Sequence record: ON210139.1
DNA length: 64,000 nt
Direction: 5' to 3' (one strand)
Source of the DNA: Escherichia phage EC128
Shown here one piece after another: positions 4,848 to 50,409 of the stretch (within the stretch, counting starts at the first letter, position 1; each line of letters starts with the position of its first letter). Under the pieces are notes generated by a model. The model saw nothing but the letters and a program-made list of their open reading frames with translations. It was not told the DNA's origin and did not search any database. The position numbers were made by a program, and so were the translations under genes.

Positions 4848-4855
4848 TATAAATA
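4848..4855 (+). promoter_or_regulatory. late promoter TATAAATA
   Basis: exact TATAAATA 26 nt upstream of ATG 4881. Confidence 0.4.
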
Positions 4856-4880: not shown

Positions 4881-5093
4881 ATGCTACAATTAACTGAAAA
4901 GCAACTTCGCAATCTTACTGTTCTTCAATTAGATGAAATTCGTAGGGAAGTTGGAAATATCATTTCAGCTTTGCGTCGAGAAGTATCACTCAACCAATCT
5001 CCGGCAGACTATACTAGATTGCGAAATTTTGAAAAATACCTTGATAAAGTTAAGGCCGTGCACCGGCACAAAGTAAATACAGGACAAAAATGA
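4881..5093 (+). CDS. hypothetical protein
   Basis: 70-aa ORF with SD AAAGGGG. Confidence 0.5.
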
Positions 5094-17715: not shown

Positions 17716-17886
17716 ATGATTTACGATATTAATGTAGCAAGAGCTCCGTCAATGGTTACTATTCCTGCTAAAGAACTAGATCGTCTTCATAAAATTGAAG
17801 AACTTCTTTGGGAAATTGAATCTGATTTGCCATCAGGATTAGAATCCTGGATTGATTATGAAGAACTTAATAAGCTTCGGGGTTAA
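17716..17886 (+). CDS. hypothetical small protein
   Basis: SD GGGG then ATG 17716; 56 aa. Confidence 0.4.
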   Translation: MIYDINVARAPSMVTIPAKELDRLHKIEELLWEIESDLPSGLESWIDYEELNKLRG

Positions 17887-18008
17887 ACCTTGGTGGGCGG
17901 CTAGATGGGAAACTGTAGAGCCAGAGCCGGAAGAACCGGTTTACACTGATGAAGAAACAGTATATAATGAACCAACGATAAATGACTTAATTGATATGGA
18001 GATGGGAC

Positions 18009-18535: not shown

Positions 18536-19009
18536 ATGTTATTGACTGGCAAATTATATAAAAAAGAAAAACAGAAATTTTATGATGCACAAAATGGTAA
18601 ATGCTTAATTTGCCAACGAGAACTAAATCCTGACGTTCAAGCTAATCACCTCGACCATGACCATGAATTAAATGGACCAAAAGCAGGAAAGGTACGTGGA
18701 TTGCTTTGTAATCTATGCAATGCCGCAGAAGGTCAAATGAAGCATAAATTTAATCGTTCTGGCTTAAAGGGACAGGGTGTTGATTATCTTGAATGGTTAG
18801 AAAATTTACTTACTTACTTAAAATCCGATTACACCCAAAATAATATTCACCCTAACTTCGTTGGAGATAAATCAAAGGAATTTTCTCGTTTAGGAAAAGA
18901 GGAAATGATGGCTGAGATGCTTCAAAGAGGATTTGAATATAATGAATCTGACACCAAAACACAATTAATAGCTTCATTTAAGAAGCAGCTTAGAAAGAGT
19001 TTAAAATGA
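18536..19009 (+). CDS. 49: endonuclease VII (Holliday junction resolvase)
   Basis: 157 aa, His-Me finger HLDHDH...N, four Cys. Confidence 0.85.
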   Translation: MLLTGKLYKKEKQKFYDAQNGKCLICQRELNPDVQANHLDHDHELNGPKAGKVRGLLCNLCNAAEGQMKHKFNRSGLKGQGVDYLEWLENLLTYLKSDYTQNNIHPNFVGDKSKEFSRLGKEEMMAEMLQRGFEYNESDTKTQLIASFKKQLRKSLK

Positions 19010-19778: not shown

Positions 19779-20555
19779 ATGAAATGGAAATTAAGAAAAA
19801 GCTTAAAAATTGACAATTCTGTAGCATTTACCTATATGGTAAGATTTCCTGATAAGTCTTTTTATATAGGTTTTAAAAAATTCAAAACTATATATGGTAA
19901 AGATACAAATTGGAAAGAATACAATTCGTCATCTAAGCTTGTTAAAGAAAAGCTTAAAGATTATAAAGCTAAGTGGATAATTCTTCAAGTTTTTGATTCT
20001 TATGAATCGGCCCTTAAACATGAAGAAATGCTTATTAGGAAACATTTTAATAACGAATTTATTCTTAATAAATCTATAGGTGGATATAAATTTAACAAAT
20101 ATCCGGATTCAGAAGAACATAAGCAAAAACTTAGTAATGCCCATAAAGGTAAAATCTTATCTTTAAAACATAAAGATAAGATACGAGAGAAATTGATTGA
20201 GCATTATAAAAATAATAGTAGAAGTGAAGCTCATGTTAAAAATAATATTGGTAGTAGAACGGCTAAAAAGACTGTTTCTATAGCTTTAAAATCCGGAAAT
20301 AAATTTAGAAGTTTTAAATCAGCTGCAAAATTTCTTAAATGCTCTGAAGAACAGGTTAGTAATCATCCAAATGTTATAGATATAAAAATAACAATTCATC
20401 CCGTCCCAGAATATGTTAGAATAAATGACAATATCTATAAATCATTTGTGGATGCTGCTAAAGATTTAAAACTCCACCCAAGTCGTATTAAAGATTTGTG
20501 CTTAGATGACAATTATCCAAATTACATTGTTTCATATAAACGGGTAGAGAAGTAG
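19779..20555 (+). CDS. I-TevII: intron-encoded homing endonuclease I-TevII
   Basis: 258-aa ORF inside the intron; divergent GIY-YIG N-terminus. Confidence 0.75.
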   Translation: MKWKLRKSLKIDNSVAFTYMVRFPDKSFYIGFKKFKTIYGKDTNWKEYNSSSKLVKEKLKDYKAKWIILQVFDSYESALKHEEMLIRKHFNNEFILNKSIGGYKFNKYPDSEEHKQKLSNAHKGKILSLKHKDKIREKLIEHYKNNSRSEAHVKNNIGSRTAKKTVSIALKSGNKFRSFKSAAKFLKCSEEQVSNHPNVIDIKITIHPVPEYVRINDNIYKSFVDAAKDLKLHPSRIKDLCLDDNYPNYIVSYKRVEK

Positions 20556-43156: not shown

Positions 43157-44584
43157 GTGGTAGAAATTATTCTTTCTCATCTTATATTTGATCAAGCTTA
43201 TTTTTCAAAAGTTTGGCCATATATGGATTCAGAATATTTTGAAAGTGGTCCAGCTAAAAATACATTCAAATTAATTAAATCTCATGTCAATGAGTATCAT
43301 AGCGTTCCATCTATTAATGCGTTAAATGTTGCATTAGAAAATAGTTCATTTACTGAAACAGAATATTCTGGTGTAAAAACACTTATTTCAAAACTAGCTG
43401 ATTCTCCGGAAGACCACAGCTGGTTAGTAAAAGAAACAGAAAAATATGTTCAGCAAAGGGCGATGTTTAATGCTACGTCTAAAATAATCGAAATTCAAAC
43501 TAATGCTGAGCTTCCTCCGGAAAAACGAAATAAGAAAATGCCAGATGTAGGTGCTATTCCTGACATCATGCGCCAAGCATTATCAATTTCATTTGATAGT
43601 TACGTTGGTCATGATTGGATGGATGACTACGAAGCACGCTGGCTATCTTATATGAATAAAGCTCGTAAAGTTCCGTTTAAACTCAGAATTCTAAACAAAA
43701 TTACGAAAGGCGGAGCTGAAACTGGAACACTGAACGTTTTAATGGCTGGCGTTAACGTTGGTAAGTCATTAGGTCTGTGTTCATTGGCAGCAGATTATTT
43801 GCAGCTCGGACATAATGTTCTTTACATTTCCATGGAAATGGCAGAAGAAGTCTGTGCTAAGCGTATTGATGCTAATATGCTTGATGTTTCTCTTGATGAC
43901 ATTGATGATGGGCATATTTCTTACGCTGAGTATAAAGGAAAAATGGAAAAATGGCGTGAGAAATCTACTCTCGGTCGTTTAATCGTTAAACAGTATCCTA
44001 CTGGTGGAGCAGATGCTAATACATTTCGGTCGCTTTTAAATGAATTAAAGCTCAAGAAGAATTTTGTTCCAACAATCATTATTGTTGACTATCTAGGTAT
44101 TTGTAAATCTTGCCGCATTAGAGTTTATTCAGAAAATAGTTACACAACTGTTAAAGCCATCGCAGAAGAATTGCGTGCTCTGGCTGTTGAAACTGAAACT
44201 GTTCTTTGGACTGCAGCACAGGTTGGTAAACAGGCTTGGGATTCTTCTGATGTTAACATGAGCGATATTGCAGAATCTGCTGGTCTTCCAGCAACAGCTG
44301 ATTTTATGCTTGCGGTCATTGAAACCGAGGAGTTAGCAGCTGCTGAACAACAACTCATTAAGCAAATCAAATCACGATATGGTGATAAGAATAAGTGGAA
44401 TAAGTTTTTGATGGGTGTTCAAAAGGGAAATCAGAAATGGGTAGAAATTGAACAAGATTCTACTCCAACTGAAGTGAACGAAGTAGCAGGTTCACAACAG
44501 ATTCAGGCTGAGCAGAATCGCTATCAAAGAAATGAATCCACTCGAGCTCAGTTAGATGCTTTGGCGAATGAATTAAAATTTTAG
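43157..44584 (+). CDS. 41: replicative helicase gp41 (DnaB-like)
   Basis: 475 aa, Walker A GVNVGKS, GTG start. Confidence 0.95.
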   Translation: MVEIILSHLIFDQAYFSKVWPYMDSEYFESGPAKNTFKLIKSHVNEYHSVPSINALNVALENSSFTETEYSGVKTLISKLADSPEDHSWLVKETEKYVQQRAMFNATSKIIEIQTNAELPPEKRNKKMPDVGAIPDIMRQALSISFDSYVGHDWMDDYEARWLSYMNKARKVPFKLRILNKITKGGAETGTLNVLMAGVNVGKSLGLCSLAADYLQLGHNVLYISMEMAEEVCAKRIDANMLDVSLDDIDDGHISYAEYKGKMEKWREKSTLGRLIVKQYPTGGADANTFRSLLNELKLKKNFVPTIIIVDYLGICKSCRIRVYSENSYTTVKAIAEELRALAVETETVLWTAAQVGKQAWDSSDVNMSDIAESAGLPATADFMLAVIETEELAAAEQQLIKQIKSRYGDKNKWNKFLMGVQKGNQKWVEIEQDSTPTEVNEVAGSQQIQAEQNRYQRNESTRAQLDALANELKF

Positions 44585-45144: not shown

Positions 45145-45438
45145 ATGAAAAAATTTGTTTTTGCTGCAATTTTTGCTTTAGCTTCTTGTGCTGCTCAGCC
45201 TGCTATGGCAGGTTATGATAAAGATTTGTGCGAATGGTCTATGACTGCAGATCAGACTGAAGTTGAAACTCAAATTGAAGCGGATATTATGAATATCGTT
45301 GAGCGCGATCGTCCTGAAATGAAAGCTGAAGTGCAAAAACAACTTAAGTCTGGTGGTGTAATGCAGTATAATTATGTTCTGTATTGCGATAAAAACTTTA
45401 ATAATAAAAATATCATCGCTGAAGTGGTAGGTGAATAA
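45145..45438 (+). CDS. sp: periplasmic protein, Spackle-like (tentative)
   Basis: 97 aa with cleavable signal peptide ...AQPAMA. Confidence 0.45.
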   Translation: MKKFVFAAIFALASCAAQPAMAGYDKDLCEWSMTADQTEVETQIEADIMNIVERDRPEMKAEVQKQLKSGGVMQYNYVLYCDKNFNNKNIIAEVVGE

Positions 45439-46232: not shown

Positions 46233-47261
46233 ATGTCATCAATACCTTGGATTGATAATGAGTTTGCATACCGTGCATTAGCTCATTTACCTAAATTCAC
46301 ACAAGTAAATAATAGTTCAACTTTTAAATTACGGTTTAGATGCCCAGTGTGTGGAGATTCAAAAACCGACCAGAATAAAGCTCGTGGATGGTATTATGGC
46401 GATAATAATGAAGGAAATATTCATTGTTATAACTGTAACTATCATGCACCAATCGGAATATATTTAAAGGAGTTTGAACCTGATTTATATCGTGAGTATA
46501 TCTTTGAAATAAGAAAAGAAAAAGGTAAAAGTCGTCCAGTAGAAAAACCTAAAGAACTTCCTAAACAACCTGAGAAGAAAATAATTAAATCTCTTCCGTC
46601 ATGTGTTAGATTAGATAAACTGACGGAAGACCATCCAATTATAAAATATGTAAAAGCTCGTTGTATTCCAAAGGATAAATGGAAATATCTTTGGTTTACA
46701 ACCGAATGGCCTAAATTGGTTAATAGCATAGCACCGGGAACATATAAAAAGGAAATACCTGAGTCTCGTCTTGTTATTCCAATTTATAATGCTAATGGAA
46801 AAGCTGAGTCTTTTCAAGGACGTGCATTAAAGAAAGATGCTCCTCAAAAATATATCACCATCAAAGCTTATCCTGAAGCAACAAAAATCTATGGAGTCGA
46901 ACGAGTTAAAGATGGTGATGTATATGTTCTAGAAGGACCTATAGATTCACTTTTTATTGAAAATGGTATAGCTATTACGGGTGGTCAATTAGACCTAGAA
47001 GTTGTTCCATTTAAAGATAGACGAGTGTGGGTCTTAGATAATGAACCTCGTCACCCTGACACTATTAAACGAATGACTAAATTAGTTGATGCAGGAGAAA
47101 GGGTTATGTTTTGGGATAAATCTCCCTGGAAATCAAAAGATGTTAATGATATGATTAGAAAGGAAGGTGCAACCCCTGAACAAATTATGGAATATATGAA
47201 AAATAATATTGCCCAGGGGTTAATGGCTAAAATGCGGCTATCTAAATATGCTAAGATTTAA
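46233..47261 (+). CDS. 61: DNA primase gp61
   Basis: 342 aa, zinc ribbon CPVCG...CYNC, TOPRIM-like core. Confidence 0.9.
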   Translation: MSSIPWIDNEFAYRALAHLPKFTQVNNSSTFKLRFRCPVCGDSKTDQNKARGWYYGDNNEGNIHCYNCNYHAPIGIYLKEFEPDLYREYIFEIRKEKGKSRPVEKPKELPKQPEKKIIKSLPSCVRLDKLTEDHPIIKYVKARCIPKDKWKYLWFTTEWPKLVNSIAPGTYKKEIPESRLVIPIYNANGKAESFQGRALKKDAPQKYITIKAYPEATKIYGVERVKDGDVYVLEGPIDSLFIENGIAITGGQLDLEVVPFKDRRVWVLDNEPRHPDTIKRMTKLVDAGERVMFWDKSPWKSKDVNDMIRKEGATPEQIMEYMKNNIAQGLMAKMRLSKYAKI

Positions 47262-47458
47262 ATTAACCCAACTAAAGCAAATGCTAAATCTACGAATGTA
47301 TCAAGAGTAACTACTGGAATACTAACGCCATGAGCAATAGCAACTGGCGATAAAACAAAATTCCAAAGTAAAATTCCTATCATAGCAGAAATAGTAAAAG
47401 CTATACGTTTCTTATTACCTTTTATGGCATTAACAAGTGCCATTAATTTTTGTACCAT
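47258..47458 (-). CDS. small two-helix membrane protein, opposite orientation
   Basis: 66 aa; strong SD AAGGAGG 5 nt before its ATG; converges on gene 61 stop. Confidence 0.45.
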   Translation of the reverse strand: MVQKLMALVNAIKGNKKRIAFTISAMIGILLWNFVLSPVAIAHGVSIPVVTLDTFVDLAFALVGLI

Positions 47459-47493
47459 ATGTCCTCCTTTAAATTAATATTTATCATAAATTT

Positions 47494-47523
47494 GTTTACT
47501 TTCTCAGCTTGTTATGGTATTAT
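47494..47523 (+). promoter_or_regulatory. early promoter
   Basis: GTTTAC 47494-47499, TGGTATTAT -10. Confidence 0.55.
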
Positions 47524-47548: not shown

Positions 47549-48888
<1,340 letters not shown>

Positions 48889-48950: not shown

Positions 48951-49466
48951 ATGCCACATTTCAACGAATGTAGTCAACTGATCGAAGGCGCTGATAAAGC
49001 TCAAAATGAGTATTGGGATATTCTCGGTGATGAAAAAGACCCGCTGCAGGTTATGCTTGATATGCAGAAATCTTTACAGGTTCGTTTAGCAAATGACCGC
49101 GAATACTGTTATCATCCAGATAAATTAGAAACTGCCGGTGATGTTGTTTCTTGGATGCGTGAACAAAAAGACTGTATTGATGATGAATTCCGCGAACTTC
49201 TGACTTCTCTTGGTGAAATGTCACGTGGTGAAAAAGATGCATCGGCAGTTTGGAAAAAATGGAAAGCACGTTATATTGAAGCGCAAGAAAAACGCATTGA
49301 TGAAATGTCCCCAGAAGATCAGCTCGAAATTAAATTTGAGCTTGTGGATATATTTCATTTCGTATTAAATATGTTTGCTGGCCTTGGAATGAATGCGGAA
49401 GAAATCTTTAAACTTTATTATTTGAAAAATAAACATAATTTTGAACGTCAAGATAATGGGTATTAA
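48951..49466 (+). CDS. 56: dCTPase/dCTP pyrophosphatase gp56
   Basis: 171 aa, MazG-like; between dam and soc. Confidence 0.8.
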   Translation: MPHFNECSQLIEGADKAQNEYWDILGDEKDPLQVMLDMQKSLQVRLANDREYCYHPDKLETAGDVVSWMREQKDCIDDEFRELLTSLGEMSRGEKDASAVWKKWKARYIEAQEKRIDEMSPEDQLEIKFELVDIFHFVLNMFAGLGMNAEEIFKLYYLKNKHNFERQDNGY

Positions 49467-50163: not shown

Positions 50164-50409
50164 ATGGCTAGTACTCGCGGTTATGTTAATATCAAAACAT
50201 TTGAGCAGAAATTAGATGGAAATAAGAAAATTGAAGGAAAGGAAATTTCAGTAGCTTTCCCTCTTTATTCTGATGTTCACAAAATTTCTGGCGCTCATTA
50301 CCAGACATTCCCTTCAGAAAAAGCAGCATATACTACTGTATATGAAGAAAATCAGCGTACTGAATGGATTGCTGCAAACGAAGATTTGTGGAAAGTAACT
50401 GGTGAATAA
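50164..50409 (+). CDS. soc: small outer capsid protein Soc
   Basis: 81 aa; SD AAAGGAG. Confidence 0.8.
   Translation: MASTRGYVNIKTFEQKLDGNKKIEGKEISVAFPLYSDVHKISGAHYQTFPSEKAAYTTVYEENQRTEWIAANEDLWKVTGE

What the first reader, a model, noticed from the sequence alone, without database searches (positions are those of the whole stretch)
47258..47458. Opposite-strand membrane-protein gene inside a block of co-directional early genes
A 66-aa ORF on the minus strand has a very strong SD (AAGGAGG 5 nt before its ATG) and ends right at the stop of primase gene 61. It encodes two hydrophobic helices. Convergent placement implies separate regulation and possible antisense interference with early transcription.
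Basis: seen in the sequence. Interest (0 to 1): 0.5.

Follow-up and report, generated by a model that had tools for sequence, protein, structure and literature searches.

The report
Conserved small late membrane-protein gene
The 66-codon reverse-strand ORF next to the primase gene is a real, conserved gene of T4-like phages for a tiny membrane protein, probably switched on late in infection; relatives list it as a hypothetical protein, the T4 reference genome omits it, and its function is unknown.

Summary
The window is a T4-like (Tequatrovirus) genome. The minus-strand ORF 47258-47458 exists as described. AAGGAGG lies 4 nt (not 5) before the ATG. The ORF's stop overlaps the stop of primase gene 61 by 4 bp.

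It is a real gene:
- It matches phrog_2024 over its full length (E=8e-31).
- It is intact in 685 of 692 matching phage records.
- It keeps the same convergent position beside the primase in at least six genera.
- dN/dS is 0.10-0.32, and variation is biased to third codon positions.
- GC by codon position is 46/33/15%.

An xATAAATA motif, like the T4 late promoter TATAAATA, sits 12-30 nt upstream of the start in 14 of the 15 loci first compared and in four more divergent metagenome loci. That 7-mer is otherwise four-fold depleted in the window.

AlphaFold (pLDDT 80) and a published TMHMM run give one transmembrane helix (about residues 19-42) plus a short C-terminal helix, not two membrane spans. 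W32, N33 and P38 are invariant.

The family is confined to T4-like phages and carries no name with any functional support. T4's reference annotation lacks it. Holin and RI-like readings were tested and not supported. Antisense interference remains untested.

Verdict: ordinary, already catalogued, function unknown.

The parts
47258..47458 (-). Protein-coding gene, 66 aa (phrog_2024; orthologue of RB69ORF029w / RB32ORF030w / VR7ORF033w; same protein as vB_EcoM_F1 F1_0032)
   Evidence: Full-length PHROG match E=8e-31. 685 of 692 phage records hold a full-length copy. dN/dS 0.10-0.32. Variable sites by codon position 6/2/12.
47463..47469 (-). Shine-Dalgarno AAGGAGG, 4 nt (ACAT) before the ATG
   Evidence: A GGAG-type SD is kept in all 19 loci inspected (GGAGG in most, GGAG in Mosigvirus).
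47478..47485 (-). T4 late-promoter-like motif GATAAATA (consensus TATAAATA), 19 nt before the ATG; the predicted leader is about 14 nt
   Evidence: xATAAATA lies 12-30 nt upstream in 14/15 loci plus L021-L024. ATAAATA occurs 11 times against 42.8+-5.6 expected in the window. A promoter is annotated at this spot in phage Lutter. Function is inferred, not shown.
47405..47455 (-). N-terminal amphipathic helix (residues 2-13) and basic patch KGNKKR (13-18); predicted cytoplasmic
   Evidence: Net charge +5, with no acidic residue.
47333..47404 (-). Transmembrane helix, residues 19-42 (IAFTISAMIGILLWNFVLSPVAIA), with invariant W32, N33 and P38
   Evidence: TMHMM 21-41 for the RB69 orthologue.
47273..47305 (-). 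Short C-terminal helix, residues 52-62 (LDTFVDLAFAL), with an acidic residue at 53 (47 of 52) and Asp at 57 (27 of 52); predicted on the periplasmic side
47258..47261 (.). TTAA: overlapping TAA stop codons of gene 61 (+) and the small gene (-)
   Evidence: A convergent end-to-end overlap with the primase gene (1-4 bp) is kept in most genera.
47424..47453 (+). Terminator-like hairpin ATGGCATTAACAAGTGCCAT plus a T-run on the gene 61 strand, lying inside codons 6-12 of the small gene
   Evidence: Annotated as a terminator in fPS-65. Present only in Tequatrovirus.
47495..47523 (+). Early-type sigma-70 promoter-like site for the downstream 186-aa gene and dam (context: back-to-back with the late motif)
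   Evidence: Promoters are annotated at the same place in Lutter and fPS-65.
46233..47261 (+). Gene 61 DNA primase (context: the convergent neighbour)

Best explanation
This is a genuine protein-coding gene of T-even-type phages. In this block of early genes it is the only gene on the opposite strand. It is most likely transcribed from its own late (gp55-type) promoter, GATAAATA, as a short-leader mRNA carrying a strong SD. It encodes a 66-aa inner-membrane protein with three parts: a basic cytoplasmic N-terminus, one transmembrane helix (about residues 19-42) and a 24-residue tail on the periplasmic side that contains a short acidic, hydrophobic helix. The invariant residues (W32, N33, P38, and nearly always A40, G44, P48, V50) cluster in the outer half of the TM helix and the loop just after it. 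I therefore infer that it works through helix-helix contacts in or at the outer face of the inner membrane, either with itself or with a partner, during the late phase, when lysis timing, exclusion and assembly at the membrane are decided. Shown here: the gene is real, conserved, under purifying selection, hydrophobic, and associated with the promoter motif. Inferred: late timing, topology, and any role at the envelope. The specific function is unknown.
For: - Coding: phrog_2024 matches over the full length at E=8e-31. tblastn finds 692 phage records, 685 of them full length. NG86 dN/dS is 0.10-0.32 within and between Tequatrovirus, Mosigvirus, Gaprivervirus, Kanagawavirus and Marfavirus. Variable sites by codon position are 6/2/12 and 6/0/12, like the 4/0/7 of the adjacent end of gene 61. 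GC1/2/3 is 46/33/15%. Indels are whole codons.
- Synteny: it is always convergent with the primase gene and the only opposite-strand gene of the block, whatever lies on the other side, be it dam, the 186-aa gene, 56 or small ORFs.
- Promoter: xATAAATA lies 12-30 nt upstream in 14/15 loci, and exact TATAAATA occurs in IME523, P545, Kosakonia 305 and L023/L024. ATAAATA is four-fold depleted in the window, 11 against 42.8+-5.6. Five of the 11 sites precede an SD and an ORF, including rI.1, gene 49 and soc. The homology break between T4 and this window falls immediately upstream of the motif. The -13 position is reported to be poorly conserved in T4-like phages (PMC1524935).
- Membrane protein: GRAVY is +1.28. 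AF2 with 52 sequences gives pLDDT 80 and helices 2-14, 16-42 and 52-63. Published TMHMM gives 21-41 for RB69ORF029w.
Against: - There is no expression data. No transcript, ribosome footprint or peptide has been seen for it, and the T4 time-course omics paper read here makes no mention of unannotated ORFs or antisense transcripts.
- In this window and in T4 the motif is GATAAATA, 7 of 8, with G at -13. Nolan 2006 reports A or T there and did not list a late promoter for RB69ORF029w in the supplementary files searched.
- SEA1 lacks the motif.
- The T6 RefSeq record has ATT in place of the ATG, and ECCR664 has a frameshift, so the gene may be dispensable.
- Nothing points to a specific function: there is no Pfam, NCBIfam, PADLOC, PDB or fold match outside the family.
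Confidence: 0.8

Rival explanations
1. The hydrophobic segment is a cleavable signal peptide. Signal peptidase I cuts after residue 42 (P38-V-A-I-A42 | H-G) and releases a 24-residue hydrophobic peptide (HGVSIPVVTLDTFVDLAFALVGLI) into the periplasm or onto the outer face of the membrane. That peptide would be the active species.
For: Position 40 (-3) is Ala in 47/52 members and Leu in 5/52. Position 42 (-1) is Ala, Thr or Ser in 50/52. P38 (-5) is invariant. Position 43 is never Pro. Several near-invariant residues (G44, P48, V50) lie in the would-be mature part.
Against: The hydrophobic core before P38 is 19 residues, which is the length of an anchor rather than of a typical signal peptide core. 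It follows an 18-residue N-terminal extension. W32 and N33 inside it are invariant, which is unusual for a segment that is merely discarded. SignalP 3.0 was negative for RB69ORF029w, which was scored instead as TM 21-41.
Confidence: 0.12
2. It is a small holin or pinholin-like protein that permeabilises the inner membrane, as the UniRef label 'Holin' on one member suggests.
For: It is small, hydrophobic and probably late. It has polar residues inside the membrane segment: N33 is invariant and Asp28 occurs in 22 of 52 members. UniRef and BFVD name the OE5505 orthologue 'Holin'.
Against: Only one membrane-spanning helix is predicted. The protein ends in hydrophobic residues, with no charged C-terminal tail. 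It is not next to an endolysin or spanin gene in any locus. No member hits any other PHROG family at E<0.05 (all 16 match phrog_2024; the weak remainder are unannotated families plus one 'replication protein'), so none hits a holin family. T4 already has its holin, T (established knowledge). Other members carry plainly wrong transferred names such as 'DNA packaging ATPase', 'dCTP pyrophosphatase' and 'head morphogenesis protein', so such labels carry no weight.
Confidence: 0.06
3. The functional product is the RNA. A late transcript antisense to the 3' end of the gene 61 mRNA shuts down or processes early messages, and the ORF is secondary.
For: The arrangement is convergent and overlapping. 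No terminator-like site follows the ORF on the minus strand for about 620 nt, and the one then found (46635-46622) is weak and at the chance level. The ORF lies between the stop of gene 61 and a terminator-like hairpin, so it sits inside the 3' UTR of the gene 61 mRNA. Antisense late transcripts are known in T4, for example for gene 32 (Belin 1987, cited in PMC3014915).
Against: The pattern of change is that of a protein: dN/dS is 0.1-0.3, variation is biased to third positions, indels are whole codons, and a strong SD is kept at the start in all 19 loci inspected. The amino-acid motif WN..xP..xG..xPxV is kept where the DNA has diverged to saturation (pS 0.6-0.95). In VR7 the gene ends 206 bp away from gene 61, so the overlap is not obligatory. 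An antisense side-effect in addition to the protein is not excluded.
Confidence: 0.05
4. It is a chance ORF in an intergenic or 3' UTR region that is conserved for other reasons (terminator, promoters).
For: Random antisense ORFs of 68-95 aa exist nearby. The T4 reference annotation does not list it.
Against: All of the coding evidence above applies. The reading frame stays open at 25-55% amino-acid identity across genera. The terminator hairpin is confined to Tequatrovirus whereas the ORF is not.
Confidence: 0.02

Closest known systems
phrog_2024: RB69ORF029w (NP_861719), RB32ORF030w, VR7ORF033w and hundreds of 'hypothetical protein' CDS in Tequatrovirus, Mosigvirus, Gaprivervirus, Kanagawavirus, Marfavirus and Gelderlandvirus
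   Same: Same family, same length (62-74 aa), same position convergent with primase gene 61, and the same SD and xATAAATA upstream. The exact protein is already in NCBI as F1_0032 of phage vB_EcoM_F1.
   Different: Nothing of substance. The T4 reference records (AF158101.6, NC_000866.4) leave the orthologue unannotated. The exact T4 sequence was found only in raw-read (Logan) assemblies, with no accession.
T4 RI antiholin (N-terminal signal-anchor-release domain)
   Same: A small T-even envelope protein with a late promoter in front of its operon (TATAAATA before rI.1 at 4848). Its N-terminal hydrophobic segment ends in P-x-x-x-A. T4 RI residues 1-20 align with ORF residues 19-38 at 8/20 identities, E=0.008 in a single comparison.
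   Different: The similarity vanishes against this window's own RI (E=0.33) and is not kept in RI of other genera. RI has a periplasmic domain of about 70 residues (PF24205) that is absent here. This protein has an 18-residue, +5 N-terminal extension that RI lacks. I judge this to be not homologous.
Class II holins and pinholins (for example phage 21 S21-68)
   Same: Similar size, hydrophobic, with polar residues in the membrane segment, and presumed late expression.
   Different: See the membership rows: one TM rather than two, no charged C-terminal tail, and no lysis-cassette context.
Late-promoter-driven genes embedded in T4 early regions (soc, gene 49, the rI.1-rI operon)
   Same: The same signal architecture in this very window: (T/A)ATAAATA, 18-30 nt, SD, ATG.
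   Different: Those genes lie on the same strand as the early genes. This one is on the opposite strand, and its motif has G at -13.

Membership tests
phrog_2024 / RB69ORF029w family | Full-length sequence match to the family profile | tested here: met
   E=8.1e-31, residues 2-66 on profile positions 1-65 of 65. All 16 diverse members match.
phrog_2024 / RB69ORF029w family | Position: convergent with the 3' end of primase gene 61 | tested here: met
T4 late genes | TATAAATA at -13 to -6 of the transcription start | tested here: inconclusive
   The window has GATAAATA, 7 of 8, 19 nt before the ATG. Orthologues have A, C or T at the first position, and several have exact TATAAATA. The core 7-mer is strongly depleted elsewhere in the window.
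T4 late genes | Transcription dependent on gp55, gp33 and the gp45 sliding clamp, starting after DNA replication begins | not testable with these tools
   No expression data are available. The T4 omics paper read here makes no mention of unannotated ORFs or antisense transcripts.
Holins (class II / pinholin) | Two or more transmembrane domains | tested here: not met
   AF2 gives one long helix (16-42) and a 12-residue helix (52-63). TMHMM gives one TM for the RB69 orthologue.
Holins (class II / pinholin) | Charged, hydrophilic C-terminal tail | tested here: not met
   The protein ends ...AFALVGLI.
Holins (class II / pinholin) | Gene next to endolysin or spanin genes | tested here: not met
   The neighbours are the primase and dam, 56 or small ORFs in all loci.
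Holins (class II / pinholin) | Forms lethal membrane lesions when expressed | not testable with these tools
   Needs an experiment.
RI antiholin family (PF24205) | Periplasmic RI domain | tested here: not met
   No Pfam hit. Only 24 residues follow the TM. Pairwise similarity is limited to the hydrophobic segment and is not reproducible.
Sec signal peptide with a signal peptidase I site | Small residues at -1 and -3, helix breaker near -5, no Pro at +1 | tested here: met
   P38, A40 (47/52; Leu in 5) and A/T/S at 42 (50/52).
Sec signal peptide with a signal peptidase I site | Short hydrophobic core (about 7-15 residues) close to the N-terminus; positive call by a trained predictor | tested here: not met
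   The core is 19 residues and starts at residue 19. SignalP 3.0 was negative for RB69ORF029w.

The most novel reading that the evidence does not exclude
T4 and its relatives carry a conserved late inner-membrane protein that the reference T4 annotation has missed. It would be an unrecognised component of a classic T-even envelope process, such as lysis timing or lysis inhibition, superinfection exclusion, or membrane-associated assembly. It would act through its invariant W-N...P membrane motif, or as a 24-residue periplasmic peptide released by signal peptidase.
Probability: 0.2. Interest if true: 0.6.

Novelty: already known. Interest (0 to 1): 0.3.

Why it matters
This matters modestly. 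The gene has been catalogued as a hypothetical protein in hundreds of T4-like genomes since the RB69 annotation, and it forms phrog_2024, so nothing new has been discovered. Three points are useful:

1. The reference T4 records (AF158101.6, NC_000866.4) omit it. Studies that rely on that annotation cannot see it; the time-resolved T4 omics paper read here makes no mention of unannotated ORFs.
2. It is one of the few opposite-strand genes in the early region, and its own late-type promoter motif is conserved across genera.
3. Its invariant polar residues within the membrane segment make it a tractable candidate for an unassigned late function at the envelope.

If it turned out to take part in lysis inhibition or exclusion, it would add a component to a textbook system.

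Tried and rejected
- Homology to known families: Pfam, NCBIfam and PADLOC gave no hit. A PDB sequence search with the family profile gave only a chance-level hit to NqrE membrane helices, E=0.77. Foldseek against BFVD returned only family members, and against PDB nothing. The afdb50 library was unavailable.
- Wider family: an HMM search of 1.84 billion representatives gave 6 hits, all from the same family or fragments of it. A profile search of 5.8 billion proteins gave 115 hits, all 41-74 aa and all from T4-like phages, with no informative names.
- RI antiholin lead: T4 RI's first 20 residues aligned at E=0.008. The match failed against the window's own RI and against RI from five other genera, so I rejected it as compositional.
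- Holin label: not supported (see the membership rows).
- Terminator hairpin as the reason for conservation: it is present only in Tequatrovirus.
- Sigma-70 promoter for the minus strand: only one weak 9/12 match, at 47568-47541.
- Literature: ten full-text searches found no paper that names or studies this ORF. The Miller 2003 T4 genome review is not held.

Full report
**What the window is.** The region carries, all on the + strand:
- helicase gene 41 (43157-44584)
- the dmd-to-61.1 cluster, including spackle (45145-45438)
- primase gene 61 (46233-47261)
- a 186-aa ORF (47549-48109)
- dam (48109-48888)
- gene 56 (48951-49466)
- a segF-like ORF
- soc (50164-50409)

DNA search shows 95-99% identity to hundreds of Tequatrovirus genomes. 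T4 itself has the same order, in the opposite orientation.

**The observation.**
- The minus-strand ORF 47258-47458 starts with ATG and encodes 66 aa.
- AAGGAGG (47463-47469) is followed by ACAT and then the ATG, so the spacer is 4 nt, not 5.
- AAGGAGG occurs only three times in the window on both strands.
- The TAA of gene 61 (47259-47261) and the TAA of the ORF (47258-47260, minus strand) share the palindrome TTAA.
- Length alone means little here, because antisense ORFs of 68-95 aa occur by chance nearby. I therefore tested the case for a gene by comparison with other genomes.

**Is it a gene?**
- The protein matches phrog_2024 (function unknown) over its whole length, E=8e-31.
- tblastn finds it in 692 phage records, 685 of them full length. 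Identity is 86-100% in Tequatrovirus, about 54% in Mosigvirus (RB69ORF029w) and 48% in Gaprivervirus (VR7ORF033w).
- A search with the VR7 protein reaches Kanagawavirus, Marfavirus and Gelderlandvirus at 31-37% identity.
- In every locus inspected it is the only opposite-strand gene of the block. It converges on the primase gene, usually with a 1-4 bp overlap of the two ends. What lies on the other side varies: dam, the 186-aa gene, 56 or small ORFs.
- Nei-Gojobori dN/dS is 0.10-0.32 in all comparisons where dS is measurable. Synonymous sites are saturated between genera (pS 0.6-0.95) while the protein motif is kept.
- Variable sites fall 6/2/12 by codon position in Tequatrovirus and 6/0/12 in Mosigvirus. 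The adjacent end of gene 61 shows a similar 4/0/7.
- GC by codon position is 46/33/15%.
- Length differences are whole codons.
- The exceptions are a 1-nt deletion in an A-run in ECCR664 and ATT in place of ATG in the T6 RefSeq record.
- I conclude that the ORF is a real protein-coding gene.

**How it is probably expressed.**
- An xATAAATA motif lies 12-30 nt upstream of the start codon in 14 of the 15 loci first compared, and it is also present in the four more divergent metagenome loci:
  - GATAAATA in this window, T4 and Lutter
  - AATAAATA in T6 and RB69
  - CATAAATA in VR7 and L021
  - exact TATAAATA in IME523, P545, Kosakonia 305 and L023/L024
- The T4 late promoter is TATAAATA at -13 to -6, and the -13 T is reported to be poorly conserved among T4-like phages (PMC1524935).
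- In this window ATAAATA occurs 11 times against 42.8+-5.6 expected. Five of the 11 sites are followed within 18-30 nt by an SD, an ATG and an ORF: rI.1, gene 49, a 258-aa ORF, soc and this ORF.
- The sequence upstream of the motif is unrelated between T4 and this window, and homology begins at the motif.
- In Kosakonia-type loci the intergenic gap is about 22 bp and still holds TATAAATA and GGAGG.
- The annotators of phage Lutter placed a promoter at the same spot.
- No convincing sigma-70 promoter faces this way. The neighbouring + strand genes have an early-type promoter at 47495-47523.
- Late, gp55-dependent transcription is therefore the best inference, but it is not shown. G at -13 is not the commonest variant, SEA1 lacks the motif, and Nolan et al. 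did not list a late promoter here for RB69 in the supplementary files searched.

**Relation to gene 61 transcription.**
- On the + strand a terminator-like hairpin with a T-run (47424-47453) lies inside codons 6-12 of the small gene. It is annotated as a terminator in fPS-65.
- So in Tequatrovirus the small gene sits inside the 3' UTR of the gene 61 message. The hairpin is absent in the other genera, so it does not explain the conservation.
- No minus-strand terminator-like site follows the ORF for about 620 nt. The only one further on (46635-46622, inside gene 61) is a weak 5-bp stem, and the count is at the level the shuffles give. A late transcript might therefore continue antisense into gene 61.
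The protein-type conservation shows it cannot be the main reason the ORF exists. In VR7 the gene ends 206 bp from gene 61.

**The protein.**
- GRAVY is +1.28. Residues 1-18 carry five basic and no acidic residues.
- AlphaFold2 with 52 family sequences gives pLDDT 80 (86-91 for residues 21-60) and helices 2-14, 16-42 and 52-63. A shallower alignment gave the same picture.
- Nolan et al. reported one TM (21-41) and no signal peptide for RB69ORF029w.
- The positive-inside rule puts the N-terminus in the cytoplasm and the last 24 residues on the periplasmic side. This topology is inferred.
- Over 52 diverse members, M1, W32, N33 and P38 are invariant, and A40, G44, P48 and V50 are at least 90% conserved.
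- Three sequence types can be told apart: the T4 type, an 'MGTLFYQIWKL' type with Asp28 in the membrane segment, and an 'MTTKKKPLF' type. Gaprivervirus carries two types in tandem.
- P38-x-A40-x-(A/T/S)42 followed by (H/Q/N)-G fits the -3,-1 rule for signal peptidase I in 50/52 members. That keeps a cleaved-peptide rival alive. The 19-residue core, the long basic N-terminal extension, the invariant W-N inside the core and the negative SignalP result argue for an uncleaved anchor.

**What it is not.**
- There is no Pfam, NCBIfam or PADLOC hit, no PDB sequence or fold relative, and BFVD returns only family members.
- The 'Holin' label on one UniRef entry is not supported. The protein has one TM and no charged C-terminal tail, it sits in no lysis context, and no member hits any PHROG family with a holin annotation. 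Other members carry obviously wrong transferred names.
- A resemblance to the signal-anchor-release domain of T4 RI (E=0.008) did not survive comparison with the window's own RI or with RI from other genera.

**Status in the databases and literature.**
- The exact protein is in NCBI as a hypothetical protein of phage vB_EcoM_F1. All named members of the clusters read are 'hypothetical' or 'uncharacterized'.
- The T4 reference records leave a 309-bp unannotated gap that contains the orthologue at 93.9% identity. A 2020s re-annotation of a T4 strain calls it a hypothetical protein.
- Ten full-text searches found no study of it. The time-resolved T4 transcriptome and proteome paper makes no mention of unannotated ORFs or antisense transcripts.
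- The protein would yield only one convenient tryptic peptide (LMALVNAIK), so it is easy to miss by proteomics. This last point is my own inference from the sequence.

**Verdict.**
It is a separately regulated membrane-protein gene, most likely late. Antisense interference is speculative.
- The gene is already catalogued and is ordinary for a T4-like genome. Its function is unknown.
- Confidence that it is a real gene for a small membrane protein, most likely transcribed late, is 0.8.
- The specific mechanism I favour is intramembrane or periplasm-face contacts that affect a late envelope event. This is inference, and I hold it with low confidence.

Noticed in passing
window 47549-48109 (+), next to dam at 48109-48888: The 186-aa ORF (phrog_8706) gives weak Type II restriction-enzyme hits: PADLOC REase_II E=9e-5, and Pfam DpnII E=0.0045, below the cut-off. 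It has a D...E.K-like stretch, [20 protein letters not shown]. Its stop overlaps the ATG of the GATC methylase gene dam. T4 lacks this gene. It lies within the 1.3-kb stretch that about 145 of 503 matching records cover by at least 80%. There is no PDB sequence match.
   Followed up: partly
whole window, both strands: The late-promoter core ATAAATA is four-fold under-represented (11 sites against 42.8+-5.6 expected). Five of the 11 sites sit 18-30 nt before an SD and an ORF: rI.1 at 4881, gene 49 at 18536, a 258-aa ORF at 19779, this ORF, and soc at 50164.
   Followed up: partly
L008 (VR7) 1495-1692 and 1701 onward; ESCO47_00130/00131 (P0118, P0141): Gaprivervirus genomes carry two diverged paralogues of the small gene in tandem: the T4 type, then the 'MGTLFYQIWKL' type. 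In VR7 the second copy reads on into the end of the primase gene.
   Followed up: partly
L003 (T6 RefSeq NC_054907) 1501-1503; L009 (ECCR664) about 1500: T6 has ATT where all relatives have the ATG start, and its annotation starts at Met6. ECCR664 has a 1-nt deletion in the AAAAAG run, which shifts the frame. These may be real loss or sequencing errors.
   Followed up: no
window 47424-47453 (+): A terminator-like hairpin for the gene 61 transcript lies inside codons 6-12 of the small gene, so one stretch of DNA serves as coding sequence on one strand and as a putative terminator on the other. It is found only in Tequatrovirus.
   Followed up: partly
AF158101.6 / NC_000866.4 (T4) 17738-17938, + strand: The reference T4 annotation has no feature for the orthologue (93.9% identical). 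Its exact sequence was found only in raw-read (Logan) assemblies, with no protein accession.
   Followed up: yes
database names of family members (P0025, P0100, P0122; T6 KMB99_gp033): Members carry mutually inconsistent automatic names: 'Holin', 'dCTP pyrophosphatase', 'DNA packaging ATPase' and 'putative head morphogenesis protein'. All appear to be mis-transfers.
   Followed up: partly
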